DNA of 64,000 nt, taken from contig JAVBJR010000595.1 of assembly GCA_031546965.1 (NCBI GenBank), positions 7,041-71,040 of the forward strand. Direction: 5' to 3'. Shown one piece after another: positions 34,765-59,841 of the stretch. The position numbers were made by a program, and so were the translations under genes. The notes beneath the pieces were generated by a model that was not told the DNA's origin, did no database searches, and saw only the letters and a list, made by a program, of their open reading frames with translations. This stretch comes from Dysgonomonas sp. (lineage in GTDB: Bacteria; Bacteroidota; Bacteroidia; Bacteroidales; Dysgonomonadaceae). Position 1 is the stretch's first letter, and every line of letters begins with the position of its first letter.

Positions 34765-34855
34765 ATTTTTTTATTTTTAAGCTGCCAAGAATATGAATAA
34801 AAATTCAAATTCCCGGCAGCTTTTATTTTAAAAACTTATAATTAGCTGCCTGCCC

Positions 34856-36277
34856 TTACCAGTTAGGGTTTTGCTTCATTGCCGGTGTTTCGATCAACTG
34901 TTGATTAGGAATAGGGAACAATTCATGTTTTCCTTCTACAAATGTTTTGCCATCAAGAGCCATAGCAGCTTTGGCTTGTCCTGTACGAACTAAGTCGAAC
35001 CAACGGTCGTGCTCAAATGCCAGCTCCAAGCGACGTTCGTGCCAGATGGCTTTGCGTAAGTCGTCTTTGGCGGTTAGGGTAATGCCGGTAAGATGTGCTC
35101 TAGTCCTGATTTGGTTCACAGCAGTTAAAGCCTCGGCGGTTTTACCCAACTCGTTGGCAGCTTCTGCTTGTATCAAGTAGATTTCGCCTAAACGCAAGTA
35201 TCTGATATTTTTATCGCTATATGTAGCTCCGGGTGCTGCACTCGAGTAAGCTTTCAGGTTGTACATGGGGTTCTCGGTTGAACCTACTACACGTCCATCC
35301 CAAAGGGTTGAATTTCTGAAAATAATGGTTCCGTTGCGACGAACCATATCGCCCGAGTCGTTGAAATCTGCTAATAAACCTGCGGAGGGAGTATTGAATC
35401 CCCATCCCCATCCGGTATCTCCGCGAGCACCTTGTGTTTGCGAATATTGTCTTGTACCTAATGCTGGAGAGTCTCCTCTACTTTGGAACTCAAATAACGA
35501 TTCTACACCATTTTTAGTAGAAGCTCTCCAAAGGGCAGCGTAATCAGATTCTAATTGATATTGTCCCGAACCTATAACTGTGGTAGCCATGTCGTATGCT
35601 TCTTGCCATTTGCCTTGGTACAAATATACTTTAGATAACAAACCTTGTGCAGCACCTTTGGTTGCACGTCCTAAATCTTTGGATGGGTACTCACTCTTTT
35701 TGGGCAGTACTTGTATTGCGTCCAACAGGTCTTTCTCGATGTATGCGTAAACCTCTGCTTTGGGGGCTCTGTTTACATCGTCTTTGCCTTGTATGGTTAC
35801 GTCTCCCCATCCTCTCACTAAGAAGAAGTAGTTGAGTGCACGCAAAAACTTGGCTTCGCCAATCAATCTATTTTTGTAAGCCGCATCAGTAAGACCAAAT
35901 TTTTCGGTGTACTCAATGGCTTGTGTTGCACGACCTATCGCCTTATACCAACGTGTCCACATGTCTTTAATAGAACTCGATGTACTGGTGTATGTGAGAC
36001 CATCAAGTATATGTTTGTCCCCCCCTGTATCGTCGGTAGAACTCCCTTTGTCGGCATTATCCGAAATAATTTCAGTAATTCCCAAATAAGCAAATGCATA
36101 ATCCCAGTCGGTAAACATACCATATGTACCATTTACAAAATCCTCGGGTTCATACACTGTAGGACTGTCTTTTGCATCTACATTTTCCTCCGATGGCACA
36201 TCTAAAAAATTGCTACATGCTGTCGTAAGTAACAGTATTGATGTTGCAGCTATAATATTTATATATATTTTTCTCAT
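34856..36277 (-). CDS. susD: RagB/SusD family nutrient-binding lipoprotein
   Basis: Lipobox TTAC; GEAKFLRA..YF.LVR.WG, GRATKGAA..LL.KVYLY, ERRLELAFEHDRWFDLVR, QNP.W. Confidence 0.95.
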   Translation of the reverse strand: MRKIYINIIAATSILLLTTACSNFLDVPSEENVDAKDSPTVYEPEDFVNGTYGMFTDWDYAFAYLGITEIISDNADKGSSTDDTGGDKHILDGLTYTSTSSSIKDMWTRWYKAIGRATQAIEYTEKFGLTDAAYKNRLIGEAKFLRALNYFFLVRGWGDVTIQGKDDVNRAPKAEVYAYIEKDLLDAIQVLPKKSEYPSKDLGRATKGAAQGLLSKVYLYQGKWQEAYDMATTVIGSGQYQLESDYAALWRASTKNGVESLFEFQSRGDSPALGTRQYSQTQGARGDTGWGWGFNTPSAGLLADFNDSGDMVRRNGTIIFRNSTLWDGRVVGSTENPMYNLKAYSSAAPGATYSDKNIRYLRLGEIYLIQAEAANELGKTAEALTAVNQIRTRAHLTGITLTAKDDLRKAIWHERRLELAFEHDRWFDLVRTGQAKAAMALDGKTFVEGKHELFPIPNQQLIETPAMKQNPNW

Positions 36278-36301
36278 GATTTTTTACTTTTACTTAATTG
36301 A

Positions 36302-39300
36302 TTAGAACGAAAGATTAAGACCAAATATGAAATTACGAGTTGTAGGATATGCCGCCGTTTCTATACCCGCTGTTTCTTTTGGACTACCAACATTTGCTGC
36401 ATTAGGGTCACTCGAATATCCCGAAAGCTCAGGTGAAAATCCGGAGTAGTTTGTGAAAATTAATGGATTTTGAGCCGTGAAATAGAATCTCAAATTAGAT
36501 CCCTTGAATAGAGCATTGTTAAGCGTGTATCCCAACGTAAGGTTATTGATACGGAAGAATGATCCACTTTCCAAATAGTAGCTCGAAGCATTCGAGTCAT
36601 GGTTAGCTCCGGGATTTGTATTTGATGTCCCGTCACCCGTCCAACGATCTTTATATGTATCATAAGCAATGTTTTCGCCACCATTTATTCTAACACCCTT
36701 CAATGCATTGTATATTTTATTACCATATACTCCATATCCGTCTAGGCTGAAATCAAACTGCTTGTATCCCAATCCTATATGTATACCATAGTTAACTGTG
36801 GGTAGGTACGATCCTAAGTATTTTTTGTCCTTGTCATCAATCACTCCATCACCATTTTGATCTTTGTATCTCAAGTGACCGGGAGCAGGTGATCCATACT
36901 TTGCGTTGGCAGGATTATTTATCTCTGCTTGATTTTGCCATACTCCATCAGTTTCCCACATCCACCATGCATAAATAGGTTGATTTTCTCTCAGTTGTTT
37001 CGTGATTTGCCCGTTTCCTAAGCTACCACCGGTATCACCATCATATGCGGGTTTTACATTAACTACCTTGTTGGTATTGTGTGAGTAGTTGGCACTGATT
37101 TCGTAAGTAAAACCGTTAGCCAACCTATCTTTCCATCCAAGATTTAATTCTATCCCTTTGTTGTTCACTTCTGCACCATGAGCTAGGTAGTTGCCTTTAA
37201 ACTGAGAATTTGATACGGGTTTTACATCTAAGATAGTATTGGTATTAGTCTTATTGTAATAATCGACACCGGCTGTCAACCTGTCGTGCAGAAACGCAAA
37301 ATCAGCTCCGATACCCCATTCTTCGGTTACCTCCCACGATAAAGGAAATGCCGGACTACCAAAGGCTGCACCAATATAGTAGGTGTAATCGGGTCCAAAA
37401 ATATAGTTGTAGTCTTTAGGATCATTCACATCGGAACCTGTACTGATACTGCTTACGACAGGAGGTACATTTTGGTTACCCAATTTACCCCAAGTTGCTC
37501 TCAGCTTCATATAGTCAAGAAAAGTAAAGCTTTCCATAAAGCTTTCTTTAGATATAGTCCATCCTGCACCTAGTGAAGGAAAAGTTCCCCAATAGTCTTT
37601 AGATTCCTTAAAAGTACTTGACCCATCGCGTCTTATAGTTCCTGTCAAGTAATATTTGTTGTCGTAGTTGTATTGGAAACGACCGAAATACGAAGCTAAT
37701 GCTCTGGGTGTGTACGAAAATTGATCGATGGTTTTTGCATAAGCATTAGAGGCATGTTTCATGCTCCAGTAGTTGCTTTCGGCAGGTACATCATAGCCTT
37801 TCAGAGCAGTTTTACCTCCAATACCTTGTTTTTCACGAGACAAACCGGCTATAACGTTTACGTTGTGCTTATCGAAGCTTTTATTGAAAGTAAGGAATCC
37901 TTCCCATGTCCAACGATAAGTATCTAAGTTTGTCAATGCAAGAGAGTTATTGGCAAAAGTTTCGTTTGATGGTGCTGCCGCCTTTGAAGCATTAAAATCT
38001 GTCTCTGTTTTGTTTGGATTTTGAAATAACCAACCTTCTTTTACATTAACAAAATTTCTATTGTCGGTGTAGTATTTTGTGGCACCAAAACGAGAACTGG
38101 CTGTCAGGTAATCGGTTATTTTAAATTCACCTTCAATACCTCCTTGTATAGAAAGGGTATGATTCGTTAAATTTTGTTTGTTTCTTGAGAACAATGGGTT
38201 GCCTATAGAGTTTAATTCAGCTGTAGGAACACCGGGAGGACTTGTTTTTTCAACGATACCGGTTTGCATATTTGCACGGGGTACTCCATAAGTTCCGTCT
38301 GCGTACCTTGTTGGTACCAAAGGCGATTGGCGATAGGCATCATCAAAAGGTCCGTAAGTGACTACTCCTTCATTGGCAAACGATATACTCAAGTTTTCCT
38401 TAAATTTCAAACGATCGTTAAAGAACTTGAATACATTGTTATTTCTTATTGTAGTACGTTGGTAGTCTTGCCCACTAAGCATACCGGTTTCATCATAAAA
38501 GTTGTAGCTGAAAAAATAATCTACCGCTTTGCTTCCCCCAGATAAAGACACAGTATTGTTATTAAAAATACCTGTGCCAAGAATTTCGTCATACCAATCG
38601 GTATTATAAGCTTGTTTATCGGCATCAGCCAAGAAATAATATTTCTCGGGATGGGTTGGATCTGCAGTTTTCAAAGTTTGCTGATTCTCATTAAAATACT
38701 GGATGTATTGCGAAGCGTCAGCCATTTTTACTCTGTTTAGGACGTTTTTCATCCCGATGTACGATTCTACACCAATTTTGGTTTTGCCTTCTTGTCCTTT
38801 TTTTGTTGTAACGATAATAACACCATTGGCAGCACGTACCCCGTAAATAGAAGCCGATGAAGCATCTTTCAATACATCCATCGAAACAATGTCCGAGGGG
38901 CTGATATTTTTGATATTTTCGGCAGGAAAACCGTCTACAATATACAATGGGTCGCGTCCTGCCAAAGCTGTACCCAATCCGCGTATAATTACTGTTGGAG
39001 AAGATCCCGGAGCATCCGATCCGGTGATACTTACCCCTGCCATTTTTCCTTGAATAGCTTGAGCTGCATTCAATGCCGGTTGTTTCATAATAGCGTCTGC
39101 TGATACACTTGATATAGACCCTGTCAAATCGGCTTTCTTTGCTGTACCGTAACCGATAACAACAGTTTCGGTCAATACCTTACTGTCATCGACCAATGTA
39201 ACATTAATTTTTGTTTGTGAGGCAACCGCTATCGATTGCGTTTTCATACCTAAGTAGGTGAAGTCGAGTACATCTCCTGATTTTGCGGCAATAGAGTAAT

Positions 39301-39508
39301 TACCATCAAAATCGGTAACTGTTCCGGTAGTGGAACCTTTAATAATAACACTAACTCCGGGTAAAGGTTCTTTTTGCCCGTCGGTGACTACTCCTGTTAT
39401 TGTAGCCTGAGCAAAAGCATTCGAAATACTTGCTGAGAAGATTAAGAATAGCAGAAGGCAAAGCTTCAGACTCATTCTCCTCATAGAGGTGAATTTAGTT
39501 TCTTTCAT
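36302..39508 (-). CDS. susC: SusC/RagA family TonB-dependent transporter
   Basis: CarboxypepD_reg N-terminus, [35 protein letters not shown], C-terminal [15 protein letters not shown]. Confidence 0.97.
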   Translation of the reverse strand: [1068 protein letters not shown]

Positions 39509-39613
39509 GGATTTCTGATTTTACTGTTAAACAATTATTTATTTAAGTATATATTCAAGTATAACTTCCTTAAAAAAGGGGTGTTATCTTAATCATTCTT
39601 AAATAATCTGCAA

Positions 39614-39621
39614 CAAATGTA
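39614..39621 (-). promoter_or_regulatory. -7 box of susC promoter
   Basis: CAAATGTA on + = TACATTTG on -. Confidence 0.65.
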
Positions 39622-39766
39622 AAAACAGTAAGTTCAGAGGATGTATAATTTATCTCACGATGAATACTTCCAGCTGTTATTTAACAATAAGCAGACCTCA
39701 TTTTTACTACTCAAAATATTTTAATTTATTAATATATAGCATTTTACCCAGGTCGTATTTTACTAT

Positions 39767-42565
39767 TTACATTTGCAAAAAGAAGTCATTTAAGTGTTGA
39801 TGTGAGGGGATATCCAGCTTTTTTCGTAGTCTATACCTGCTATTTTCTACTGCTCTCACCGAAATGTTCATAAGAGCAGCTATTTCTTTGGAGTCTAAAT
39901 TGAGCTTCAAACAGGCACAAAGACGCAGGTCGTTAGCTGTGAGTTGAGGGTAGGACTCTTTTATTTTTTTGAAAAAGTGTGTATGTTTCTGTTCGAATTT
40001 GATCAAGAATGTTTTCCAATCTTCTTCACTATCCAAATTGCTGTTAAGCAAGGTATTGATCTTTTGAAACAGAGGTGCTAAGGTTTTATTATTTTGTTTG
40101 GTGTAGAATTCTTCCACTTCGTTTTTAATATTAAGAATCAGCTCATTACGCTGTATAATGAATGAGGTTTGAGATAGTAGTTCTGCATTTTTTTCTTCTA
40201 CCTCTTGCTGGAGATGCTCATTGATAAGGTTTAAACGTTTGGATTCAAGTATACGCATTTTCTTGATATGCAGCTTTTTGTATTTATATTGAACGTACGC
40301 AATAATAGCTGCAATAAATAGCATGAACAATACAAAATAGGCTGTAATTGCCCAGCCCGACTGATACCAAGGAGCTAATATCTCGAAAGAGAATCGGATT
40401 TCTTGGGACTTGTTTCCTTGACGGTCTATTGCGACCAGTATAAAGGTGTATTTACCCTTAGGAAGACGTTCGTAAGTAACATGGTTTTGATTCTTAACGG
40501 CATACCATTGATCGTCTAAGCCTTCGAGTTTATACAAGAATGACAGGTTTCGGGTCAGCGTTTCGGCTGTAGAAAAACTAAAGTTAATGGTATTGAATGA
40601 GTGGCTTATCTGATTAAAATTGTTGTCAAGATAGTCTGATTCTCCATTAGAATTGGATATTTTGATCGATTTGAAGTAGGATTGTGCTATCGGTTTGTAG
40701 TCTGCCGTTAATTTATTTTGGCACAATAAGAAGCCGTTATCTAAGCAAATAAGACTCAAATCATCGTCCAAATTGACGATATTTTCATAATTGTCAACCA
40801 TCGAGAAGTTTTTGTACCCTATATCTATAGTAAATTTTATTTGAGCCCTATTGTCAGCATAAGTTACATTGTAAACAAGGTTATTACCTATGATCCAAAA
40901 ATTTTCGGGAGATATATTAACCACCTCTTTGAGTCCGGTAATATCCCGAAAGCACTCGTTCAAAGCATTTTCGGGAACAATAGATCCGTCGATATCATTA
41001 TAAGTATAGAATTTGTTATTGCCCAGAAAGGCAACCCTTCCACCTACTTTAAACAATTTCAATTTGTACGGGATGTCCTGCTGACCTTCGCTTCCATAAT
41101 ATTTGAATGATTCTATTTTAGAGAAGTCGTTATTGAGCCGGGTTCGGTATATGCCCTTATTCATGTGTTGAAACCAAACATTATTAAGATGATCGGTCTG
41201 CACTTTATTAATAGGTTCGAGTACCTCATTCAAATTATGGATGGTTTTGGTTTTTTTATCTAAAGTTATTACGTTGACGTAAGTACCCAATAGGAGATGA
41301 TCGGGATCTTTTTCGAGTATATAAAATACTCCTGCATTAATATTATAAGGAGCCGTTACAGACAGGTTTTTATCTATTACAAGTAATCCCCAATTATGAG
41401 AGCAATACAACTGATTGTCAATAACATTGAGACTCCAAACCTGCCCTTCTGTTTTAGGTACAAACCTAAATTTAGAGAGGGCATTCATGCTATATAAGTC
41501 ATTTTTTTCGATATAGTATACCCCTTGATTTGTTGCCACAAAAAGCTTGTTGTCGTATAATGCAGCCGAATATACAGCACCTATTTTTCCCTTAGGGTCT
41601 GTTATACAGCTAATTCCGTTCAAGTACTGTATACAGGATATTCCTCGGTCTAATCCTGCCCAAATATTGTAAGCATGATCTTCGTATATAGACAATACGG
41701 TATTGTTGTGCAGGTAAGTTTCGGTATTGAAGTGATTGGTTATGTTTCCATTTGGCGACAATTCGTATACTCCCCCGAGAATTGTGCCAAAGTAATAATT
41801 GCCGTTATGAGCAGCCAGTCCGCAATTGATATTATTGTCAATCAGTTCATTATTGTTATTCCAGACCTTAAATTCTACTCCGTCGTAAATATAAAGTCCC
41901 ATAGACGATGTGCCTATAATGTACTTATTATCAGGAGAGGGAAGCACTGTTTTGACTTCTGTCTTTGAAAATATTTCGCTGCCTGCTATTTTAACATAAC
42001 GATCTCCTTCTATTTTAAAAATACTTCCACCAATTTCTTGCACCCATAGTTCGTTGTTGACTTTTATCAAAAGAAGGATACTTTTCTGTTCGGGCAATAT
42101 ATATACATTATTTTGATCGTAGATATAGATATTTCTGAAAGACTGAAAATAGATCAAGTTATCTTTTTTCCAGATTCTCCAAATGTCGTCATTGTGTAGT
42201 GGACCTCCCGGTAAATTATCACTTAAGGAGGTGTATTTGAGAAGACCGCTGATGCCTCTATCCCATCGACCAAATTCTTCGTATCCACCCGTATAGATGG
42301 TCTGATTGGAGGCAGCCGACACAGCCCTCACCACATCTGCTTTATGTAATTTGTTGAGATGCCAGTCTATCCCATCGAACTCAAGCAACCCTAAATCGTT
42401 TCCTATGTATATTATCCCCTTTTCGTCTTCGCTCAAAGACCAGTTTTTGTTGCCGGCTTGGTAGTCGTTTCTGTTAAAGTTAATAATGTTAGGATTGTTG
42501 GCTGATATGGTGATGAATGATAATATAAAGACAGTTATTGCTGTCAAAAACATATATCGAGTCAT
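39767..42565 (-). CDS. Membrane-spanning one-component regulator: beta-propeller sensor + Y_Y_Y + TM + LuxR-type HTH
   Basis: YQAGNKNW, YKLEGLDDQW...YERLP.GKYTF (Y_Y_Y), PWY + TM, LTANDLRLCACLKLNLDSKEIA.LMNIS.RAVE..RYRLRKKL; no histidine kinase. Confidence 0.9.
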   Translation of the reverse strand: MTRYMFLTAITVFILSFITISANNPNIINFNRNDYQAGNKNWSLSEDEKGIIYIGNDLGLLEFDGIDWHLNKLHKADVVRAVSAASNQTIYTGGYEEFGRWDRGISGLLKYTSLSDNLPGGPLHNDDIWRIWKKDNLIYFQSFRNIYIYDQNNVYILPEQKSILLLIKVNNELWVQEIGGSIFKIEGDRYVKIAGSEIFSKTEVKTVLPSPDNKYIIGTSSMGLYIYDGVEFKVWNNNNELIDNNINCGLAAHNGNYYFGTILGGVYELSPNGNITNHFNTETYLHNNTVLSIYEDHAYNIWAGLDRGISCIQYLNGISCITDPKGKIGAVYSAALYDNKLFVATNQGVYYIEKNDLYSMNALSKFRFVPKTEGQVWSLNVIDNQLYCSHNWGLLVIDKNLSVTAPYNINAGVFYILEKDPDHLLLGTYVNVITLDKKTKTIHNLNEVLEPINKVQTDHLNNVWFQHMNKGIYRTRLNNDFSKIESFKYYGSEGQQDIPYKLKLFKVGGRVAFLGNNKFYTYNDIDGSIVPENALNECFRDITGLKEVVNISPENFWIIGNNLVYNVTYADNRAQIKFTIDIGYKNFSMVDNYENIVNLDDDLSLICLDNGFLLCQNKLTADYKPIAQSYFKSIKISNSNGESDYLDNNFNQISHSFNTINFSFSTAETLTRNLSFLYKLEGLDDQWYAVKNQNHVTYERLPKGKYTFILVAIDRQGNKSQEIRFSFEILAPWYQSGWAITAYFVLFMLFIAAIIAYVQYKYKKLHIKKMRILESKRLNLINEHLQQEVEEKNAELLSQTSFIIQRNELILNIKNEVEEFYTKQNNKTLAPLFQKINTLLNSNLDSEEDWKTFLIKFEQKHTHFFKKIKESYPQLTANDLRLCACLKLNLDSKEIAALMNISVRAVENSRYRLRKKLDIPSHQHLNDFFLQM

Positions 42566-47820: not shown

Positions 47821-49116
47821 CTATTTCCGCCGTATTACATTTATATCTCCTGCCTCTTTGTAATGCTTACCTTCGGAGCCAAGTGCGTCTATGGCATAAA
47901 AGTATACTCCTGTATTTACATACCTTCCATTGTATTTTCCGTCCCATCCTTGTGCGGGATCAGTCCATTCATAAAGTTTATTTCCCCATCGGTTGAAAAT
48001 AGTACATTTGAATTTGACCAACGATTTGTACGTAACTTTAAATACTCTAGCTTCTTCGCTGTTTGCATCGGGAATTAAAATATTAGGTATTTTAAGTTCC
48101 GATTCGGAGATCGACAGTTGCACATTTGCAGTATCGGCACAAACAGAACTTCCATCGGCTACTTCTAATACCACTTTAAATGTTCCGGCATTATTGAATG
48201 TATATTTTATATTTTTATCCGTATAACGAACAATGGGGTTTTGCATATCCTTTGTATTGTAAATAAACCACGTATAAAAACGAGCTGTGGGTTCGTTTCC
48301 ATATCCCGAAAAAGTAACTTCCGCAGGAGCAGATCCTCCCAACTCAACCGGTTTCAGATTAGCATCAAGTTGTACGGCATCCACAAAGGCTTTGGTTCTC
48401 ACGGCTATATAGTTTCTACTCTCTATAAAAATGTTCAGCCCAAAATGTTCGGCAAACTGGTCGCCGCTTAATGTAAACTTGGTGTCCATAAAGGGAGCAT
48501 CAATTGTTCTGTCGATACCAATATCAACCGGACCTATTGTTTTGGTTTCGGGTTTAAATTCTTTCGTTTTTCCATCCAAATCAGGATATTCTATTGTGTA
48601 TTTTCTGATTATTGAGTACTTGCCGCCGGTGGTTGCATAATAGGGTAAATCGTCCGATTTGTCAATTAATAATTTAAGATAGTCACATTTATCTTCTCCC
48701 TCCGAAGGTTGAATAGAATTTAGTTTGGGCAGATGTCGGCTATAGTCAATTATCCATATCACGGCATTATTTGTTCCATTTACTTCGGCAAAATATCCTT
48801 TGGAATCTTCGAGATTAGTAATTGTATAGGTGGTACTATTTCCACTGATGCTTGTGGTTATATCAGAATAGGGTATCAGTACCTTGTCGGACAGAGATTG
48901 TGTATACTTATAAAAACGCACAACAGCAGCACTGGAGGTATAGGAAATGGATGCTCCCGAAAAAGTATTGAGAAGGTAAATCTTAGAAATACCTGTACCT
49001 CCCAGTGCATCAGTATATTCAGCGGGTTTTCCTCCAATCCCACCCGACACGGTATATTGTGCCCATGATGTAATCGAAAATACAAATAAAAGTAAGCTGG
49101 TGAGAAGATATTTCAT
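47821..49116 (-). CDS. Secreted protein with PKD domain and gliding-motility-associated (T9SS type B, CHU_C-like) C-terminal domain
   Basis: Signal peptide; YTFNNAGTFKVVL (PKD); IFNRWG.KLYEW....QGWDGKYNG....GVYFY.I.A.G.....Y...GDINVIR. Confidence 0.85.
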   Translation of the reverse strand: MKYLLTSLLLFVFSITSWAQYTVSGGIGGKPAEYTDALGGTGISKIYLLNTFSGASISYTSSAAVVRFYKYTQSLSDKVLIPYSDITTSISGNSTTYTITNLEDSKGYFAEVNGTNNAVIWIIDYSRHLPKLNSIQPSEGEDKCDYLKLLIDKSDDLPYYATTGGKYSIIRKYTIEYPDLDGKTKEFKPETKTIGPVDIGIDRTIDAPFMDTKFTLSGDQFAEHFGLNIFIESRNYIAVRTKAFVDAVQLDANLKPVELGGSAPAEVTFSGYGNEPTARFYTWFIYNTKDMQNPIVRYTDKNIKYTFNNAGTFKVVLEVADGSSVCADTANVQLSISESELKIPNILIPDANSEEARVFKVTYKSLVKFKCTIFNRWGNKLYEWTDPAQGWDGKYNGRYVNTGVYFYAIDALGSEGKHYKEAGDINVIRRK

Positions 49117-49383
49117 TTTGTGAATTATAAAACATAAATGTGCAAAAAAAAAGCTTACTTGCCAAATTTTAGAAATATTTTGTCACCCAAAACTCGGGTT
49201 ACGAAAAATTAGAAATAAGGCACACATCCTATACTAAATAATTAATCACCAATAAAACAATTAGTTATAGGTGACAAAACAACAGTTTATGTTCTATATT
49301 TTCGTTCTACTTTTTTGTATAATCTTTAGGCAATATTTCGAACTGTTTATAGAAGCATTTTCTAAAATAAGAATTTGATTATT

Positions 49384-49410
49384 GGACAGACCACATAGGT
49401 CTGCCCTAAC
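49384..49410. repeat. Degenerate GTAG-type REP
   Basis: GGACAGACCACATAGGTCTGCCCTAAC. Confidence 0.5.
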
Positions 49411-49442
49411 AATCAAAATTACACCATTGAAAATACTTTCAT

Positions 49443-51251
49443 TTATTTCTTTAAAGAATTACATACTTCTTGGTTAACTTGACGAAGACGTACCTCATCT
49501 AACTTAACAACCTCGCGGTCATAAGTCATCAAGCCATTTATTTCACCTTCAATATCTGTTGCTTGAGTATAAACAGCAGCAGAGAATCCTGCTTTTATCA
49601 ATCTTTTCAGAATTTCGGCATAGTTTATATATTCGTCTGTTGCTTCTTTCGAATTTCTGAATCCGACATATCCCCAGCTTTTGGAAGGATCCCACATATG
49701 CCTATCTATCGCAAGAGCTATTCCTCCATATCCGCCTAATACTGTGGCTCTTTGAGTATCATACATGCTAAGTATAGGAACTGGATAAGCGAAAAAATCG
49801 AGTATATCGCCTGTATGAAAATGATTGCCACCGGCTGCAGGATTCACCAAACGCGACGGATCGTATGTTTTAGTCCATTCAGCAGTTTCTACCGTTCTGA
49901 ATTGTCCCCAAGCTGTATTAAATGGAATCCATGTTACGATAGAAGGATATGACACAAGACAATCAATTATCTCTTCCCATTCTTTGTAGAAGTTTGTTTC
50001 CGATTCAGCCGAACGAACAAGTTCTTCACCATTAAAATACTGATTGAATTGCAATTGAGACGCTCTATCGCCGCTAGGCATATCTTGCCAAACTAACATT
50101 CCTATCCGGTCGCAATGTGTGTACCAACGAGCAGGTTCTACTTTCATATGTTTGCGGATCATATTAAATCCGAAGTCTTTTGTTTTCTGAATGTCATATA
50201 TCAAAGCTTCGTCTGTTGGAGCAGTATATAATCCGTCGGGCCACCAACCTTGATCGAGCGGTCCAAATTGAAAATAGTCTTTGTTGTTTAACTGTAAACG
50301 TACAATTCCATCCTTGTCTTTTTGGGTCGAAATTTTACGCATGGCTGCATAACTCTTCACTTTGTCAACCAATTTTCCTTTGTCATACAGATTAACTTCA
50401 AGATCATATAAGAAAGGAGATTCGGGCGACCACAACTTCACACCAGATATAGGGATACTCAATTGTTCACCCACTGCTTTCTTTACTTGGGCTACAGTAG
50501 ACGAACCGTTTTTCACTATTACTTCGACCATATCGGCAGAGGTAGTTTTTTCGGTAGCAATATCTATGGATAGTTTTTTAGTATCTATGTTAGGAATCGT
50601 TTTTATTGATGATATATATTTAGCATTCACAGGCTCCAACCAAACGGTTTGCCAAATACCCGAAACGGGTGTATACCAAATACCTTCGGGTCGTATACTC
50701 TGTTTTCCTACAGGTTGAAAACTCTCATTTGTAGGATCCCACACTTTTACGACCAACGTTTGGTTGTCTGATGTAAGAAAAGGAGTTATATCAAACGAAA
50801 AGGGAGTATAACCACCTGTATGGCTTCCTACTTTGACATTGTTGAGGTATACTTCGGTTTTCCAATCCACTGCGCCAAAGTGCAATAGGATGGTTTGGTT
50901 TTTCCAATCGGTCGGAATGGTAAACGAACGCTTATACCATAAATTTTTCTCTTTTCCGAGTGATTTCTGAACTCCCGAAAGGCTCGATTCTACGGCAAAC
51001 GGAACAAGTATCTTACCATCGTATTTTTGAGGTTCGCTTTGTCCGGTAGGTAATATGGCATACTCCCACAATCCGTTGAGGTTTGTCCAATCCTGACGTT
51101 CCATTATAGGACGCGGATACTCGGGCAAAACGCTATTTACATCAATGGTTTGTGCCCATTTTGTCTTTATTTTATCTCCCATCGGTTTCCATTGAGCAAA
51201 CAGTCCGATGCAAGAAATGATCATTGAGAATAATAAAATTTTTCTTTTCAT
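49443..51251 (-). CDS. GH2 family protein, both catalytic Glu substituted
   Basis: PEYPRP, LNGLWEY, LHFGAVDW, LDQGWWPDG, FNMIRKH..VEP; WIPFNTAWG (normally NE) and VLGGYGG (normally GEYGG). Confidence 0.9.
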   Translation of the reverse strand: MKRKILLFSMIISCIGLFAQWKPMGDKIKTKWAQTIDVNSVLPEYPRPIMERQDWTNLNGLWEYAILPTGQSEPQKYDGKILVPFAVESSLSGVQKSLGKEKNLWYKRSFTIPTDWKNQTILLHFGAVDWKTEVYLNNVKVGSHTGGYTPFSFDITPFLTSDNQTLVVKVWDPTNESFQPVGKQSIRPEGIWYTPVSGIWQTVWLEPVNAKYISSIKTIPNIDTKKLSIDIATEKTTSADMVEVIVKNGSSTVAQVKKAVGEQLSIPISGVKLWSPESPFLYDLEVNLYDKGKLVDKVKSYAAMRKISTQKDKDGIVRLQLNNKDYFQFGPLDQGWWPDGLYTAPTDEALIYDIQKTKDFGFNMIRKHMKVEPARWYTHCDRIGMLVWQDMPSGDRASQLQFNQYFNGEELVRSAESETNFYKEWEEIIDCLVSYPSIVTWIPFNTAWGQFRTVETAEWTKTYDPSRLVNPAAGGNHFHTGDILDFFAYPVPILSMYDTQRATVLGGYGGIALAIDRHMWDPSKSWGYVGFRNSKEATDEYINYAEILKRLIKAGFSAAVYTQATDIEGEINGLMTYDREVVKLDEVRLRQVNQEVCNSLKK

Positions 51252-51290
51252 TCTTATTGTTGTTTTTATAGTTACAGTTAATAGTTAATA

Positions 51291-51314
51291 GTAGAGACGC
51301 AATGCTTTGCGTCT
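51291..51314. repeat. GTAG-type REP preceded by AGTTAAT repeats
   Basis: GTAGAGACGCAATGCTTTGCGTCT; upstream ATAGTTACAGTTAATAGTTAATA. Confidence 0.8.
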
Positions 51315-51330
51315 AAGCAATTATCGAATT

Positions 51331-52335
51331 TCAAAATGTTGGATTTGGTGCTGATAAAGAAGGGCTTCCATCGCCAATATGAGGCCAATTGTTAGTATCC
51401 CATTTTACTTGGTCGAGAAGTAAAATTCGACCTTTCGGGTTCTTTATATCAACACCGTGATAGAATATCCAATCGTTACCCGCCTCATCCTTTACTATTT
51501 CGGAACAATGTCCGTTTCCTACAAACCGGCTATTGCTGTTGATAACTATATCATAACCATTATTGAGCATACTTTTTCCGCTTTTATCAGTATAAGTTCC
51601 CAATAACGATTTTGACCTACCTACCACCAATTTGTAAGTACTCTTCACCCCTTCGCAACAGCTTCCGACAGAGGCAAACATATAATAGTAATTGCCTTTT
51701 TTATAGATGTAAGTACCTTCAAATGCAGTACCTGCAATTTTTTTCTTTTTGGCTCCTTTTTTTAAAGTAAGTCCGTCGTTACTAAGTTCAATAGCATAGA
51801 TACCTCTGAAGCTACCCCAAAACAAATACTTCTTTCCACCGTCTTCTATATAGACAGGGTCTATCGAATTGGTTACGCCAATTTCATTACTTCTGAAAAG
51901 CTTTCCTTTGTCGGTAAAAGGTCCTGCCGGACTATCGGCAACAGCTACCCCAATGCCACAGGTTTGTTCACCTCCCCAAACCGACATCGAATAATAAAGA
52001 ACGTATTTGCCATTAACAGAATTAATATCGGGAGCCCAAAGCCCTCCTTTCGGTTCGAAAGTAGGACGGCTGCTGTCTGTAAAAGCTGTTCCTACAAAGC
52101 TCCAATTTACCAAATCTTTCGATTTATAGATGGGCATATTACGCATATCCTCTGTAGCATACAGGTAAAAGTATCCATCGTTTGCTTTTATGATGGAAGG
52201 ATCGGGCAAGCTTCGTGCTACCACCGGATTGGAGTATGTACCCGATTGGGGAGAAGGAGCCGGCTCATTATTTTGTGCAAAGCAAGTGCCTAAACTAACT
52301 GCCACAACAAATAAGAATAGAAGTTTTTTTTTCAT
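51331..52335 (-). CDS. GH43 family glycoside hydrolase, secreted
   Basis: LPDPS (base), WAPD, SIDP (pKa modulator), FEGT (acid), GNGH. Confidence 0.92.
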   Translation of the reverse strand: MKKKLLFLFVVAVSLGTCFAQNNEPAPSPQSGTYSNPVVARSLPDPSIIKANDGYFYLYATEDMRNMPIYKSKDLVNWSFVGTAFTDSSRPTFEPKGGLWAPDINSVNGKYVLYYSMSVWGGEQTCGIGVAVADSPAGPFTDKGKLFRSNEIGVTNSIDPVYIEDGGKKYLFWGSFRGIYAIELSNDGLTLKKGAKKKKIAGTAFEGTYIYKKGNYYYMFASVGSCCEGVKSTYKLVVGRSKSLLGTYTDKSGKSMLNNGYDIVINSNSRFVGNGHCSEIVKDEAGNDWIFYHGVDIKNPKGRILLLDQVKWDTNNWPHIGDGSPSLSAPNPTF

Positions 52336-52347
52336 CGTATTAAACCT

Positions 52348-54363
52348 TTATTTTTTCTTATAATTAAAATAATTTTCTACCCGATCGGGGCTAAGCATTT
52401 GCCACAGCGAAGCCACTGTCCAACCCGGAGCAAAGATATCATTGTAAAAGCCTTTTCCGTTTTTACCATAGTCCCAATTGGTATGCTGTACAACTTCGGG
52501 GTAATATCCAACCTTACCTATGTCAAACATGTGTCCTTTAACAGGCATCAATTGAAGCATCGAACTTTTGATTACAGCCGAAAATTGAGAGAATCGAGGC
52601 TCGTTACGTTCTTTTGCCAACCAATTTAAAACGGTTGCAAACTCAAAAATAAACACATCAACGTGATTGTTTTCGACCGATACATTTCCCCAACCTCTCG
52701 ATTTGAAGTTTACATCGCCCAACATCTGCCCTTGTGCAAAAGGTACATCCCACATATAGTACCACGAAAGGCTAAAGTAGGCAGCTTGTTTACTCAAATC
52801 GATATAATGTTGTTGTTCTTTTCCTTTTGACACCATTGCCATATAATACATAGCAGTAGAGGCATATAGAGATGCTTCTTTGTCTTCGCAGTTGGCATCT
52901 AAGGTCGACGAGAAATAGTCGGCTTTAGAAACCAGTTCTTTCTCCAAATAGACGGCTGTGCTTTTGGCACTCTCTAAGTACGATTTGTTATTGAAATAAG
53001 TATAAGCCATTGTCAATGGCAGGGTTGCCGACGGAGTACTGCCTCCCGACTCATCTACAATTTTGAAATTGTCGTCAAATTTACGAGGAAAGCTACCGTT
53101 TGCTTCTTGTAATTTAAGGAAATTGTCCAACAAGGTTTTTATTTTGGTTTCCCACTCGGTATGCTTACGACCTTTTCTTTTTTCGTATTCAAGGTAGTTC
53201 AACAAGGCAAAAGCTCCTTCAGACTGGCGGCGTATGCTGTATACTTTTGTTTCATCATTATGATTGTAATCTACAAACTCACGGAAGAAACCCGAAGGTG
53301 TAAAACCATATTGTAGGTAACTATCGAATATCGAATTTGCTTTTGCTACCAAATCGGGCTTATTATTTGCTTCGCCATACTCCAGTGCATTAAAGGCATT
53401 GAGTAATACACGTCCCACAAAACCAACTTCAACAGAACCTGTACTTTCGCAATCGTCGGTACGCATGTGTACTCCCGAAAAATATTTCAGGTCGTATTTA
53501 TTAACATAGCTTTCGGTGAAAAAATTAGAAAGAGTTGCTTTGGCATCAGCTGTCGATAAATGGTCTTTTACTTCTTGAGGTCTCAAGGTATCGAACGAAT
53601 AATTCCAAACAGAAGCTACGAATTTAGAGAAATTTTCTGCTTTGCTCTTCCTTATTTCCCAAACAAGTTGACGGGTTTCGCCTTTTTCCAACTTTTCGAA
53701 AGCTTGCACAGCAGGAGCTAAAGTCAACTTACGTATATACGTTTTAGGTGCTTCGGCATATGGAAAACCAAAAACAAGTGCCGATTGTCCCCCCTGATTA
53801 CGGAATCCTGTAAATCCTAAGGATGTTTTACCCGATAGAATAATTTCGCCTTGACTATGACATGCTAAGCTTTCGTTCTTAAAATCGTCTCTACGCAATA
53901 CGGTGTAATAAGCCCCGGTTTTTTCGTTGAAAATTCCGGTTAATGGTGTACTCAAACGGTCTTCTCTCACCTGCCAGCTATCGCTTGTGTAGAACGATGG
54001 TGCTTCTTTGGGCGACCTTAGATTGCGTCTGTACCAAAATCCGGGCATATAAAACTGGCAATCGTTGTGACTCATGGTTGTATTATAACTTTCTTCGAAA
54101 TTATAATATACTACCTCTTTTGCTTTGATGGTGATCGTTAATACCAGTGAAGAATCATTTTCTACCGTCTGTTCTTTTATTTCTACGGGTATATTTTGAG
54201 TAGATGACAAAATACCATTCTGTGCCTGCAACGGATATGATATTGCCGGATTTCCGGGAGTTTTTAAGGTTATTTGTCGCCCCAGTTTATCATTCATATT
54301 GGCAGCATGAGTCAACCCGATAGAGGTAATAAATAACGTAAATAGTAATAATCTTTTTTTCAT
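52348..54363 (-). CDS. Secreted hypothetical protein, 671 aa, candidate glycoside hydrolase
   Basis: Signal peptide; beta-rich N-terminal half and helical C-terminal half; sits between two GH43 genes with a 12-nt gap to the next gene. No family recognised. Confidence 0.8.
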   Translation of the reverse strand: MKKRLLLFTLFITSIGLTHAANMNDKLGRQITLKTPGNPAISYPLQAQNGILSSTQNIPVEIKEQTVENDSSLVLTITIKAKEVVYYNFEESYNTTMSHNDCQFYMPGFWYRRNLRSPKEAPSFYTSDSWQVREDRLSTPLTGIFNEKTGAYYTVLRRDDFKNESLACHSQGEIILSGKTSLGFTGFRNQGGQSALVFGFPYAEAPKTYIRKLTLAPAVQAFEKLEKGETRQLVWEIRKSKAENFSKFVASVWNYSFDTLRPQEVKDHLSTADAKATLSNFFTESYVNKYDLKYFSGVHMRTDDCESTGSVEVGFVGRVLLNAFNALEYGEANNKPDLVAKANSIFDSYLQYGFTPSGFFREFVDYNHNDETKVYSIRRQSEGAFALLNYLEYEKRKGRKHTEWETKIKTLLDNFLKLQEANGSFPRKFDDNFKIVDESGGSTPSATLPLTMAYTYFNNKSYLESAKSTAVYLEKELVSKADYFSSTLDANCEDKEASLYASTAMYYMAMVSKGKEQQHYIDLSKQAAYFSLSWYYMWDVPFAQGQMLGDVNFKSRGWGNVSVENNHVDVFIFEFATVLNWLAKERNEPRFSQFSAVIKSSMLQLMPVKGHMFDIGKVGYYPEVVQHTNWDYGKNGKGFYNDIFAPGWTVASLWQMLSPDRVENYFNYKKK

Positions 54364-54495: not shown

Positions 54496-55467
54496 CTATT
54501 TTACTTCTTGAGGTACTATTATATTGCCTCCTATTTTCATAACAGGCGTTGCATCGTTGGTAAAAGAGACATCTGTTATATACATCAGGCGTGGATGTAT
54601 ATTCTCCTTATCGTGATGGGCATGAAATACCATTCGCAGTCTGCCTTTCTTATCTTTAAATATCGCACTGTGTCCCACACCTACAAGATTGCCGGGTTTC
54701 TGAAAAATGGGATTCTTATCGTACTTTGTCCAAGGACCCATAGGCGAAGAAGCTGTTGCATAACCTACCCCATAGTTTTGGCTTTGATAATCGTTTGCCG
54801 AATAAATCATATAGTAAGTGTCCTTGTGTTTTACGATAAAAGAACCTTCGGTAACCCGTCCTAAATCGTTTTCCCACTTTTCGGTCACATGTACACAGGG
54901 TTTCATGGTTTCTTTCTTCATTGTTTTCAGATCGGATTCCATTTGGGCTACCCAAATATTATTGCCATCCGTGAAGCGTACAAACGAGAGGTATGCTTTG
55001 CCGTTGTCGTCTATAAAAAGCGAATTATCGATACATTTTTCGCTTTCTATAATTGGTTTTTGTACCTCTTGACGAAAAGGTCCTGTGGGTGAGTCGGAAG
55101 TAGCAACGCTTATATGCTCCTCAACCGAATAATACATGTAGAATTTTTTGCTCTGTGGAATGTAATATACTTCGGGAGCCCAAAACCATTTGTCGCCCCA
55201 CGAATCGTTTTTATGCAATGCTAAAGTCGGTTGTTTTTTCCAGCTAATAAGGTCATTGGATGTATATACAACAATACCGTCTTTATCATCCGTTCCATAG
55301 GCATAATAAGTATTGTTATGCAACATGATGAAAGGATCGCCTAAAGCAACCGGGTGTTCTAAATTAGTAACAATCTCTCCTTTTGGGGATGTAGAAACTT
55401 TATTGCTATTGCAAGATGCTAAGATTATAGTCAGAAGAGTAAAAAGGATGCCTTTTAATATTTTCAT
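54496..55467 (-). CDS. GH43 family glycoside hydrolase, lipoprotein
   Basis: Lipobox LASC; LGDPF, WAPE, CIDN, VTEG, GVGH. Confidence 0.92.
   Translation of the reverse strand: MKILKGILFTLLTIILASCNSNKVSTSPKGEIVTNLEHPVALGDPFIMLHNNTYYAYGTDDKDGIVVYTSNDLISWKKQPTLALHKNDSWGDKWFWAPEVYYIPQSKKFYMYYSVEEHISVATSDSPTGPFRQEVQKPIIESEKCIDNSLFIDDNGKAYLSFVRFTDGNNIWVAQMESDLKTMKKETMKPCVHVTEKWENDLGRVTEGSFIVKHKDTYYMIYSANDYQSQNYGVGYATASSPMGPWTKYDKNPIFQKPGNLVGVGHSAIFKDKKGRLRMVFHAHHDKENIHPRLMYITDVSFTNDATPVMKIGGNIIVPQEVK

Positions 55468-56196: not shown

Positions 56197-59841
<3,645 letters not shown>

What the first reader, a model, noticed from the sequence alone, without database searches (positions are those of the whole stretch)
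49443..51251. Full-length GH2 pseudoenzyme: both catalytic glutamates replaced
Seen: the acid/base motif reads PFNTAWG (codon ACA at 49914-49916, about residue 446, two base changes from GAA) and the nucleophile motif reads VLGGYGG (GGA at 49731-49733, about residue 507). The nearby DFFAYP also departs from the DxHxYP I recall, yet the 602-aa frame, signal peptide and N-terminal domains are intact. The other GH2 in the window keeps both Glu. Established: GH2 retaining catalysis needs both residues. Inference: coordinated loss without frameshift points to a repurposed glycan-binding, scaffolding or sensing protein, notable because this cluster has no SusD or regulator; a non-canonical mechanism or early decay are alternatives.
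Basis: partly seen in the sequence, partly recalled or inferred. Interest (0 to 1): 0.72.

Follow-up and report, generated by a model that had tools for sequence, protein, structure and literature searches.

The report
Catalytically dead GH2 furanosidase homologue
A full-length, transcribed relative of sugar-cleaving GH2 furanosidases has lost both catalytic glutamates yet still evolves under purifying selection, so it is probably a kept non-enzymatic (perhaps sugar-binding) protein, known so far from one bacterial lineage only.

Summary
ORF 49443-51251 (minus strand, 602 aa) is a three-domain GH2 protein of furanosidase subfamily GH2_18. It reads Thr446 (ACA) at the acid/base position and Gly507 (GGA) at the nucleophile position, and DFFAYP where relatives read DLHNYP. 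All 239 closest homologues keep Glu, Glu and His there.

It is not a sequencing error. Contigs from an independent metatranscriptome match both codons exactly.

It is the positional orthologue of intact genes in Dysgonomonas loci (GH43, unknown 671-aa protein, GH43, aldose epimerase, GH2, SusC, SusD). The window's lineage has lost the epimerase and SusC/SusD.

Only this gene is accelerated: 68 versus 17 lineage-specific replacements. The excess is concentrated in the catalytic half, residues 391-602. Branch omega there is 0.29-0.43, against a background of 0.03, and is significantly below 1. The rest of the gene has omega 0.11-0.16.

Unconstrained decay would be expected to give about 4-15 stop codons; there are none. 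All six ligand-contacting residues known from the Streptomyces galactofuranosidase structure are retained.

The best reading is a selectively maintained pseudo-glycosidase, possibly lectin-like. The binding function is inferred, not shown. It is a single lineage with no usable 3D model. Moderate interest.

The parts
49443..51251 (-). GH2* : 602-aa GH2_18-type protein lacking both catalytic glutamates (stop codon 49443-49445)
51195..51251 (-). Predicted signal peptide (residues 1-19, MKRKILLFSMIISCIGLFA, cleavage before QW)
   Evidence: Read by eye. The N-terminus is conserved in homologues (consensus), and the 7SF2 construct begins at the equivalent AQW.
49914..49916 (-). Codon ACA = Thr446 at the acid/base position. 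Relatives have GAA/GAG, so two base changes were needed.
49731..49733 (-). Codon GGA = Gly507 at the nucleophile position. Relatives have GAA.
49782..49799 (-). DFFAYP (residues 485-490) where relatives have DLHNYP. H487F took three base changes and N488A two. Tyr489 is kept.
49446..50081 (-). Fast-evolving catalytic half of the TIM barrel (residues 391-602). It has 46 lineage-specific replacements against 6 in the sister lineage. pN peaks at residues 476-525. Branch omega is 0.29-0.43.
50082..51194 (-). N-terminal beta-sandwich, Ig-like domain and first part of the barrel (residues 20-390). These remain strongly constrained: 3 of 163 conserved columns changed, branch omega 0.11-0.16.
50703..50705 (-). 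Lys183, equivalent to ORF1110 K212 (binds O3/O6 of the -1 sugar); retained
   Evidence: Hand mapping from the alignment, offset 23; residue roles from PMC11627007
50673..50675 (-). Tyr193, equivalent to ORF1110 Y228 (O6); retained
50148..50150 (-). His368, equivalent to ORF1110 H401 (O3); retained. Arg366 (50154-50156), the conserved beta-2 Arg, is also retained.
49917..49919 (-). Asn445, equivalent to ORF1110 N463 (O2); retained next to the lost acid/base
49668..49670 (-). Tyr528, equivalent to ORF1110 Y551 (ring N/O5); retained
49542..49544 (-). Glu570, equivalent to ORF1110 E594 (bidentate to O5/O6); retained
51331..52335 (-). GH43b, endo-arabinanase-like, immediately upstream on the same strand. 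Catalytic D/D/E motifs are intact.
52348..54363 (-). Conserved 671-aa protein of unknown family in the same syntenic block
54496..55467 (-). GH43a, first gene of the syntenic block. Catalytic motifs are intact.

Best explanation
GH2* is the positional orthologue of an exo-furanosidase of GH2 subfamily 18, whose characterised members are beta-D-galactofuranosidases and alpha-L-arabinofuranosidases. Here it sits in an arabinan-type gene block. It can no longer carry out retaining hydrolysis. The nucleophile Glu is Gly, the acid/base Glu is Thr, and the flanking His-Asn of loop 6 is Phe-Ala.

Shown: the substitutions are real and transcribed. They are unique among 239 homologues. Only this gene of the block is accelerated, and the acceleration is concentrated in the barrel half that carries the active-site loops. 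The gene as a whole is still under purifying selection: omega is below 1 in both halves, 83 of 99 conserved C-terminal columns are kept, replacements are conservative, and there are no stops or indels.

Inferred: the protein is made, exported to the periplasm by its signal peptide, and folds like its relatives. It is kept for a non-catalytic job. The most likely job is binding, without cleaving, glycans that end in a furanose. All six residues that hydrogen-bond the -1 sugar in the Streptomyces enzyme are retained, and engineered acid/base mutants of that enzyme behave as lectins. The catalytic centre was dismantled in the same lineage that lost the aldose epimerase and the SusC/SusD transporter pair of the ancestral locus. 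This suggests the block changed role. The order of these events is unknown.
For: 1. Identity of the positions. Alignments to 7SF2 and 9J6N/9J6M have no gaps around the motifs. E446, H487 and E507 are conserved in 239 of 239 homologues. GH2-wide, the nucleophile is described as an invariant Glu (PMC12243196).

2. Not an error. RNA run X1 has contigs with 0 differences at 49696-49885 and 49876-50147, which cover both codons. It has 30 contigs at 99% identity or more, and no differences listed, across 44-64 kb. Key codons differ from relatives by 2-3 bases.

3. Orthology. The order GH43a, unk671, GH43b, (epimerase), GH2 is conserved in six Dysgonomonas/Bacteroides loci. The N- and C-terminal halves have the same nearest relatives, so the gene is not a mosaic.

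4. Gene-specific acceleration. Tajima relative-rate counts are 68 vs 17 for GH2 (p 2e-8). Neighbours give 10 vs 14, 12 vs 13 and 22 vs 11.

5. Regional concentration. Counts are 46 vs 6 in residues 391-602 and 22 vs 11 in 1-390. The per-site difference has p 1e-8, while the sister lineage is even across the two regions. pN peaks at 476-525, exactly where relatives have pN 0.

6. Persisting constraint. The joint codon model with shared synonymous branch lengths gives omega_W 0.43 for the C-half (omega = 1 rejected, p 8e-4) and 0.16 for the N-part (omega = 1 rejected, p 9e-8). The two halves differ (p 2.5e-5). With a clock constraint the values are 0.29 and 0.11, and omega = 1 for the C-half is rejected at p 4e-16. 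In the C-half, 83 of 99 conserved columns are kept. Mean BLOSUM62 of derived changes is +0.14 against -0.52 for simulated neutral changes (p 0.005), and 95% of neutral simulations acquire a stop. A whole-gene neutral phase sized to the N-part excess predicts about 4 stops (P of none 0.01-0.02). One sized to the C-half excess predicts about 15 (P about 1e-7).

7. Binding residues. K183, Y193, H368, N445, Y528 and E570 match K212, Y228, H401, N463, Y551 and E594 of ORF1110.

8. Precedent. ORF1110 E464Q/S/C mutants lose 56- to 3000-fold in kcat/KM, keep KM, and bind Galf-BSA like a lectin (PMC11084152).

9. Neighbours are intact. They deviate at 0-2 conserved columns and their catalytic motifs are present.
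Against: Only one lineage is sampled: the protein cluster has 1 member and 1 contig, and no DNA run holds it. Fixation and within-species constraint therefore cannot be assessed.

Omega values are branch averages. A recent switch to neutrality cannot be excluded outright; it is only made improbable by the intact frame.

Synonymous sites are close to saturation. The single-partition branch model could not separate omega_W = 0.59 from 1 for the C-half. The stronger result depends on sharing synonymous branch lengths across genes.

Retention of 6 of 6 binding residues is not in itself statistically unusual, because most conserved columns are retained. Several other near-invariant residues of loops 3-8 are replaced (W400L, S473A, Y478F, G512A, N525S, T564A), which could equally have destroyed the sugar site.

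The locus has lost its SusC/SusD and epimerase, which fits a pathway being abandoned. GH43b also shows a mildly raised omega on this lineage.

The RNA evidence comes from assembled contigs of low depth, and DNA carry-over cannot be excluded. No 3D mapping was possible.
Confidence: 0.6

Rival explanations
1. Relic on its way out. After the locus lost its transporter and epimerase, the furanosidase became useless. It lost catalysis by drift and is an intact-looking pseudogene that has not yet been hit by a stop or indel.
For: SusC/SusD and the aldose epimerase are lost relative to all six related loci. The lineage is a singleton. Omega is raised in both halves of the gene, and mildly in GH43b. 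The single-partition model cannot reject omega = 1 for the C-half.
Against: The excess replacements are 6-7 times denser in residues 391-602 than in 1-390, although synonymous divergence is similar. The joint model rejects omega = 1 in both halves and rejects equal omega between them. About 4-15 stops are expected and none is seen, and there are no indels. Replacements are conservative. In the C-half, 83 of 99 conserved columns are kept. The gene is transcribed at about the level of its neighbours. Catalytic codons carry 2-3 base changes, so the inactivation is old.
Confidence: 0.22
2. Still an enzyme, using a non-canonical mechanism. Other residues, the substrate itself or an external nucleophile would replace the two glutamates, as proposed for some GH2 subfamilies that have alternative acid/base residues.
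For: GH2_19 and GH2_21 members with a substituted NE motif exist and are unexplained; examples are 7XYR (NE replaced by TV) and an alternative Glu in GH2_21 (PMC12243196). The sugar-contacting residues R366, H368 and Y489 are retained. Some derived acidic residues appear (G162D, S409E, K426E, Q521D).
Against: 7XYR keeps its nucleophile (GEFGG), whereas here the nucleophile is also gone. That residue is reported invariant across all GH2 subfamilies. Position 521 is already E or Q in many intact homologues, so D521 is not a new carboxylate. Alanine mutants of either Glu in ORF1110 greatly reduce activity. Omega of 0.3-0.4 with scattered loss of near-invariant loop residues looks like relaxation rather than re-tuning.
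Confidence: 0.07
3. Artefact. The substitutions would be sequencing or assembly errors, a chimeric assembly, or a stretch read out of frame.
For: Only that the source lineage is represented by a single contig in the protein collection.
Against: Independent RNA-derived contigs match exactly over both codons and over 30 pieces of the surrounding 20 kb. There are 74 derived replacements, many needing 2-3 base changes. Conserved residues are interleaved throughout the divergent stretch, so the frame is maintained. Both halves have the same nearest relatives and similar dS.
Confidence: 0.01

Closest known systems
BACCELL_01794 of Bacteroides cellulosilyticus (PDB 7SF2), an uncharacterised GH2_18-type protein
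   Same: Same length class and three-domain layout. The two align end to end (residues 19-602, E 1.5e-267) without gaps around the active-site motifs. They share the signal-peptide boundary and a Bacteroidota origin.
   Different: 7SF2 has NE, DLHNYP and GEYGG. The window protein has NT, DFFAYP and GGYGG, plus 16 further changes at near-invariant columns.
Beta-D-galactofuranosidase ORF1110 of Streptomyces sp. JHA19 (PDB 9J6M/9J6N; GH2_18)
   Same: Homologous over residues 20-597 (E 2e-149). All six residues that hydrogen-bond the inhibitor in subsite -1 (K212, Y228, H401, N463, Y551, E594) have identical counterparts.
   Different: ORF1110 is an active enzyme with E464 and E530, and mutating either to Ala greatly reduces activity. 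The window protein has Thr and Gly there. ORF1110 also carries a C-terminal CBM42-like domain that is absent here.
GalfNeoLect, the engineered E464Q mutant of ORF1110 used as a galactofuranose lectin (PMC11084152)
   Same: A GH2_18 scaffold with the acid/base removed that keeps its KM and binds Galf conjugates. This is the functional model for what the window protein may do.
   Different: It is man-made, carries a single mutation, keeps its nucleophile and has residual activity. The window protein arose naturally, lost both catalytic residues and changed many second-shell residues. Its binding is untested.
BtGUS-like protein of B. thetaiotaomicron (PDB 7XYR; GH2_19) and other GH2_19 members with TV/NA/NQ instead of NE
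   Same: A natural loss of the acid/base motif in the sister furanosidase subfamily, flagged in the literature as functionally unexplained.
   Different: 7XYR retains the nucleophile (GEFGG) and the change recurs within its subfamily. The window protein also lacks the nucleophile and is so far unique in its clade.
Catalytically inactive glycoside-hydrolase homologues that act as lectins (for example GH18 chitinase-like proteins); general knowledge, not tested here
   Same: An enzyme fold is kept, catalytic carboxylates are lost, and a binding role is proposed.
   Different: These are a different fold family and are mostly eukaryotic, with binding shown experimentally. Nothing comparable is documented for GH2 in the papers I could search.

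Membership tests
GH2 (sequence family), subfamily GH2_18 / group III furanosidases | Three-domain architecture: sugar-binding beta-sandwich, Ig-like domain, TIM barrel | tested here: met
   Pfam PF02837, PF00703 and PF02836 all score above their cut-offs. The protein aligns full-length to 7SF2 and 9J6N.
GH2 (sequence family), subfamily GH2_18 / group III furanosidases | Closest similarity is to proteins assigned to GH2_18 | tested here: met
   9J6M is assigned to GH2_18 in PMC12243196 and matches at E 8e-149. The GH2_19 structure 7XYR is more distant at E 3e-94. No CAZy subfamily HMM was available, so the assignment is by nearest characterised relative.
GH2 (functional glycoside hydrolase) | Acid/base Glu in the NE motif of loop 4 | tested here: not met
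   The motif reads N445-T446. The position is Glu in 239 of 239 homologues.
GH2 (functional glycoside hydrolase) | Nucleophile Glu in loop 7, reported invariant in all GH2 subfamilies | tested here: not met
   The residue is G507. The position is Glu in 239 of 239 homologues. Invariance is stated in PMC12243196.
GH2 (functional glycoside hydrolase) | Conserved Arg of beta-strand 2, His of loop 2 and Tyr of loop 6 | tested here: met
   R366, H368 and Y489 are present. However, H487, which precedes the Tyr and is invariant in this clade, is Phe.
GH2 (functional glycoside hydrolase) | Hydrolytic activity on a glycoside | not testable with these tools
   This needs an enzyme assay.
Pseudoenzyme / lectin-like glycosidase homologue | Catalytic residues lost while the fold-determining sequence is kept | tested here: met
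   Conserved columns are kept at 160 of 163 in the N-terminal part and 83 of 99 in the C-terminal part.
Pseudoenzyme / lectin-like glycosidase homologue | Maintained by purifying selection after loss of catalysis | tested here: met
   Branch omega is 0.29-0.43 in the C-half and 0.11-0.16 in the N-part, with omega = 1 rejected. The frame is intact against an expectation of 4-15 stops. Caveats: these are branch averages, only one lineage is sampled, and synonymous sites are near saturation.
Pseudoenzyme / lectin-like glycosidase homologue | Expressed | tested here: inconclusive
   Exact-match contigs occur in a metatranscriptome at a depth like that of the neighbours. The data are contigs only, depth is low, and DNA carry-over is possible. 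There is no protein evidence.
Pseudoenzyme / lectin-like glycosidase homologue | Ligand binding retained | not testable with these tools
   Only indirect evidence exists: the six -1 subsite residues of ORF1110 are conserved.
Polysaccharide utilisation locus (PUL) component | Adjacent SusC/SusD pair | tested here: not met
   Orthologous loci have SusC/SusD next to the GH2. In the window the nearest pair (34856-39508) is only 28-32% identical to those and belongs to another cluster.

The most novel reading that the evidence does not exclude
This would be a naturally evolved furanose-binding lectin derived from a GH2_18 furanosidase. It would be the first GH2 family member known to lack the otherwise invariant nucleophile while being kept by selection. 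It would be a natural counterpart of the engineered Galf neolectin, working in the periplasm of a gut Dysgonomonas as a non-hydrolysing binder or sensor of arabinofuranosyl- or galactofuranosyl-terminated oligosaccharides.
Probability: 0.3. Interest if true: 0.6.

Novelty: new variant of a known kind. Interest (0 to 1): 0.45.

Why it matters
GH2 is among the largest and best-studied glycosidase families, and its nucleophile is described as invariant. A natural member that lost both catalytic residues yet remains under selection would show that pseudoenzymes arise in this family too. It would also caution against counting every GH2 hit in genomes and metagenomes as an active glycosidase.

If the protein binds furanosides, it could be a ready-made natural reagent of the kind people have had to engineer for detecting galactofuranose.

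The case also gives a dated snapshot of how a polysaccharide-utilisation locus is remodelled. Transporter and mutarotase were lost, one enzyme was converted, and the neighbours stayed intact. Its weight is limited because it rests on one lineage and no experiment.

Tried and rejected
1. AlphaFold2 model of GH2* from 34 close homologues. Mean pLDDT was 60, with all active-site loops below 50. It was unusable for 3D mapping or for looking for substitute carboxylates, so no fold search was run on it.

2. Per-partition branch codon models. Omega on the window branch was not identifiable because synonymous changes are near saturation and can be shifted to the sister stem. Even intact GH43a could not reject omega = 1. 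I replaced these with a joint model that shares synonymous branch lengths.

3. Search for further members of the lineage. The full-length search found a nearest relative at 80% identity. The C-terminal fragment search found a nearest at 69%. A scan of genome representatives did not find the window's own species. An exact-protein look-up found nothing on record. Run searches found only one RNA run and no DNA run.

4. Mosaic or recombinant origin of the C-half. Rejected: both halves have the same nearest relatives, dS is similar, and the derived residues are absent from all homologues.

5. Compensated frameshift. Rejected: conserved residues are interleaved throughout residues 485-532.

6. General decay of the block. 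Rejected: GH43a, unk671 and GH43b show 2, 0 and 2 deviations at conserved columns and have intact catalytic motifs.

7. Remnants of the epimerase or SusC in the intergenic DNA. No significant similarity was found.

8. Literature search for PUL-encoded pseudoenzymes. It returned nothing directly comparable.
Full report
**1. What is there**

The minus-strand ORF 49443-51251 encodes 602 residues. It carries the three Pfam domains of family GH2, all above their curated cut-offs.

Its best solved relatives are:
- 7SF2, BACCELL_01794 of Bacteroides cellulosilyticus, E 1.5e-267;
- the Streptomyces sp. JHA19 beta-D-galactofuranosidase, 9J6N/9J6M, E 2e-149;
- 7XYR, E 3e-94.

A recent subdivision of GH2 places 9J6M in subfamily GH2_18 and 7XYR in GH2_19. 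Together they form 'group III', the only GH2 group acting on furanosides (alpha-L-Araf and beta-D-Galf) (PMC12243196).

In the gap-free alignments around the motifs, the window protein differs from the intact enzymes as follows:
- N445-T446 where they have N-E (acid/base);
- G507 where they have E (nucleophile);
- D-F-F-A-Y-P where they have D-L-H-N-Y-P.

**2. Is it more than chance, and is it real?**

E446, H487 and E507 are conserved without exception in the 119 closest full-length homologues. The same holds in 120 further fragments retrieved with the C-terminal 211 residues.

The window protein departs from the majority at 19 of 262 columns that are at least 97% conserved. Every other sequence treated the same way shows 0-6 departures, with a median of 1.

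An independent data set confirms the sequence. A metatranscriptome from an invertebrate gut (run X1) holds contigs with zero differences at 49696-49885 and 49876-50147, which together cover both codons. It holds 30 contigs at 99% identity or more, with no differences listed, across 44-64 kb.

Several key codons differ from those of relatives by two or three bases: E446T two, H487F three, S473A three, N488A two. Single-read error or a very recent slip is therefore excluded.

**3. Orthology and context**

The nearest genomes are Dysgonomonas sp. HGC4, D. alginatilytica and a Dysgonomonas MAG, at about 80% amino-acid identity. The window's own species is not among the species representatives.

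In these and three further Dysgonomonas/Bacteroides loci the gene order is GH43a, a 671-aa protein of unknown family, GH43b, aldose 1-epimerase, GH2. SusC/SusD lies either after or before the block.

The window keeps GH43a (54496-55467), the 671-aa protein (52348-54363), GH43b (51331-52335) and the GH2. It has no epimerase: only 79 bp separate GH43b from the GH2. It also has no orthologous SusC/SusD. The only pair in the window (34856-39508) is 28-32% identical to those of the relatives and belongs to a separate cluster with its own regulator and a GH3.

GH43b resembles endo-1,5-alpha-L-arabinanases. The ancestral block therefore probably dealt with arabinan or a related furanoside-rich glycan. 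This is an inference.

The retained neighbours are intact: they show 2, 0 and 2 departures at conserved columns, and the GH43 Asp/Asp/Glu motifs are present.

**4. How the gene has evolved**

*Relative rate.* Tajima relative-rate counts against three outgroups are 68 replacements unique to the window lineage versus 17 unique to the sister lineage (p 2e-8). The three neighbours are balanced, at 10:14, 12:13 and 22:11.

*Location of the excess.* The excess is regional: 46:6 in residues 391-602, which hold barrel loops 3-8 and both catalytic positions, against 22:11 in residues 1-390. The sister lineage shows equal per-site rates in the two parts. In a sliding window, pN peaks at residues 476-525 (0.25), where intact relatives have pN 0.00. 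pS is broadly similar along the gene.

*Alternatives excluded.* In intact proteins the C-half is the more conserved half (96% within the sister group). In the window protein it is the less conserved half (71%). Both halves still have the same nearest relatives, so this is not a mosaic.

*Codon model.* I wrote a branch codon model to quantify this.
- Run gene by gene, it could not pin down omega on the window branch, because synonymous changes are near saturation.
- Run jointly on five partitions with shared synonymous branch lengths, it gave omega on the window branch of 0.07, 0.08 and 0.13 for the three neighbours (backgrounds about 0.05). For GH2 residues 20-390 it gave 0.16 (background 0.05), and for residues 391-602 it gave 0.43 (background 0.03).
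- Omega = 1 is rejected for both GH2 parts (p 9e-8 and 8e-4). Equality of the two parts is rejected (p 2.5e-5).
- With the window branch forced to the same synonymous length as its sister path, the estimates are 0.11 and 0.29, and omega = 1 for the C-half is rejected at p 4e-16.

**5. Decay or maintenance?**

If the whole gene had become neutral, both parts should show the same added rate. They do not.

A neutral phase long enough to explain the N-part excess would bring about 4 stop codons, with P of none 0.01-0.02. One long enough to explain the C-half excess would bring about 15, with P about 1e-7. Neither figure counts indels.

In simulations that mutate the ancestral C-half until 44 residues differ, 95% acquire a stop. 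The mean BLOSUM62 score of the simulated changes is -0.52 ± 0.25, against +0.14 observed (p 0.005).

In the C-half, 83 of 99 conserved columns are still conserved. By comparison, 51 of 113 variable columns differ from the majority.

I therefore read the pattern as a local release, or remodelling, of the catalytic centre in a protein that continued to be needed. I do not read it as a dead gene.

The caveats are real. The omegas are branch averages. One lineage is all there is. A very recent loss of all constraint cannot be excluded.

**6. What it may do**

The structure paper on ORF1110 lists the residues that hydrogen-bond the inhibitor in subsite -1: K212 and H401 (O3), N463 (O2), Y551 (ring N, O5), Y228 and K212 (O6), and E594 (O5/O6) (PMC11627007).

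I mapped them by hand from the alignment (chain index + 23 = paper numbering, checked on both catalytic Glu). They correspond to K183, H368, N445, Y528, Y193 and E570, and all are retained. The conserved Arg366 and Tyr489 are retained as well.

Engineered E464Q/S/C variants of ORF1110 lose 56- to 3000-fold in kcat/KM, keep or lower KM, and bind Galf-BSA as well as a natural lectin does (PMC11084152).

By analogy, the window protein may bind furanoside-terminated glycans without cleaving them. Its signal peptide suggests it does so in the periplasm.

This step is inference. Keeping 6 of 6 residues is not statistically remarkable when most conserved columns are kept. Other near-invariant loop residues are gone (W400L, S473A, Y478F, G512A, N525S, T564A).

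A non-canonical catalytic mechanism is unlikely:
- The nucleophile is described as invariant across all 23 GH2 subfamilies.
- The unexplained GH2_19 proteins with a substituted NE motif, such as 7XYR, still have their nucleophile.
- The only derived carboxylate near loop 7 (D521) sits at a position that is E or Q in many intact homologues.

**7. Comparison and novelty**

In descent the protein is a GH2_18 member: architecture and nearest relatives are met. It fails the two features that define a functional GH2. It should therefore not be annotated as a beta-galactosidase or furanosidase.

It works, if at all, like a lectin-type pseudo-glycosidase, a kind known from other families and from the engineered neolectin. 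I found no report of a natural GH2 lacking the nucleophile. I rate it a new variant of a known kind.

Interest is moderate. The evolutionary signal is clean and unusual for this family. But it is a single lineage, the role is untested, and the locus around it has been partly dismantled.

**8. Limits**

- There is no usable 3D model. The AF2 run gave pLDDT 60.
- No second genome of the lineage is available.
- The RNA evidence comes from low-depth assembled contigs.
- The rest of the source genome is unseen, so an intact paralogue cannot be ruled in or out.

Noticed in passing
window 52348-54363 (minus strand): A conserved 671-aa secreted protein with no Pfam, NCBIfam or PDB sequence match. It has more than 6500 homologues, and those that carry a name are all called 'hypothetical'. 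It always sits between the two GH43 genes in related loci. The AF2 model (pLDDT 71, pTM 0.79) shows an N-terminal beta-sandwich plus an (alpha/alpha)6-type barrel. The best Foldseek hit is polysaccharide lyase BACCELL_00875 (5NO8, E 9e-10, TM 0.41), followed by GH94, GH116 and GH63 enzymes. It is probably an undescribed carbohydrate-active enzyme family.
   Followed up: partly
window 51252-51330 and 49117-49442; compare L001 8734-9876 and 12010-16642: Relatives carry an aldose 1-epimerase between GH43b and the GH2, and SusC/SusD after the GH2. The window has neither, and no recognisable remnants remain in the intergenic DNA.
   Followed up: yes
window 51295-51314 (minus strand): A perfect 8-bp hairpin, AGACGCAA-agca-TTGCGTCT, lies between the GH43b stop and the GH2* start, with no T-run after it. 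It may be a terminator or attenuator, or a scar of the epimerase deletion.
   Followed up: no
window 51331-52335 (minus strand): GH43b also shows a mildly raised omega on the window lineage (0.09-0.13 against a background of 0.05; p 8e-5), although its catalytic motifs are intact. This hints at a wider change in how the block is used.
   Followed up: partly
window 56197-59799 (minus strand): A 1200-aa LacZ-type GH2 with an extra N-terminal ricin-B lectin domain (residues about 36-162) and intact catalytic Glu residues. It is transcribed in run X1 at the highest depth in the region. It has no counterpart in the related loci.
   Followed up: partly
window 47821-49116 (minus strand): A 431-aa protein with a PKD-like domain and a type-B T9SS C-terminal sorting domain lies directly downstream of GH2*, where relatives have SusC. 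It is absent from the related loci, and its 3' part is transcribed in X1.
   Followed up: no
window 32479-42565 (minus strand): A separate PUL-like cluster: a regulator with Reg_prop/Y_Y_Y domains and a LuxR/GerE-type helix-turn-helix (39767-42565), SusC (36302-39508), SusD (34856-36277) and a GH3 (32479-34764).
   Followed up: no
window 50835-51023 (residues 77-139 of GH2*): A second, smaller peak of lineage-specific replacements lies in the N-terminal sugar-binding domain (E103N, D138N and others). Relatives are almost invariant there. It may line the active site or an interface, but this could not be checked without a structure.
   Followed up: no
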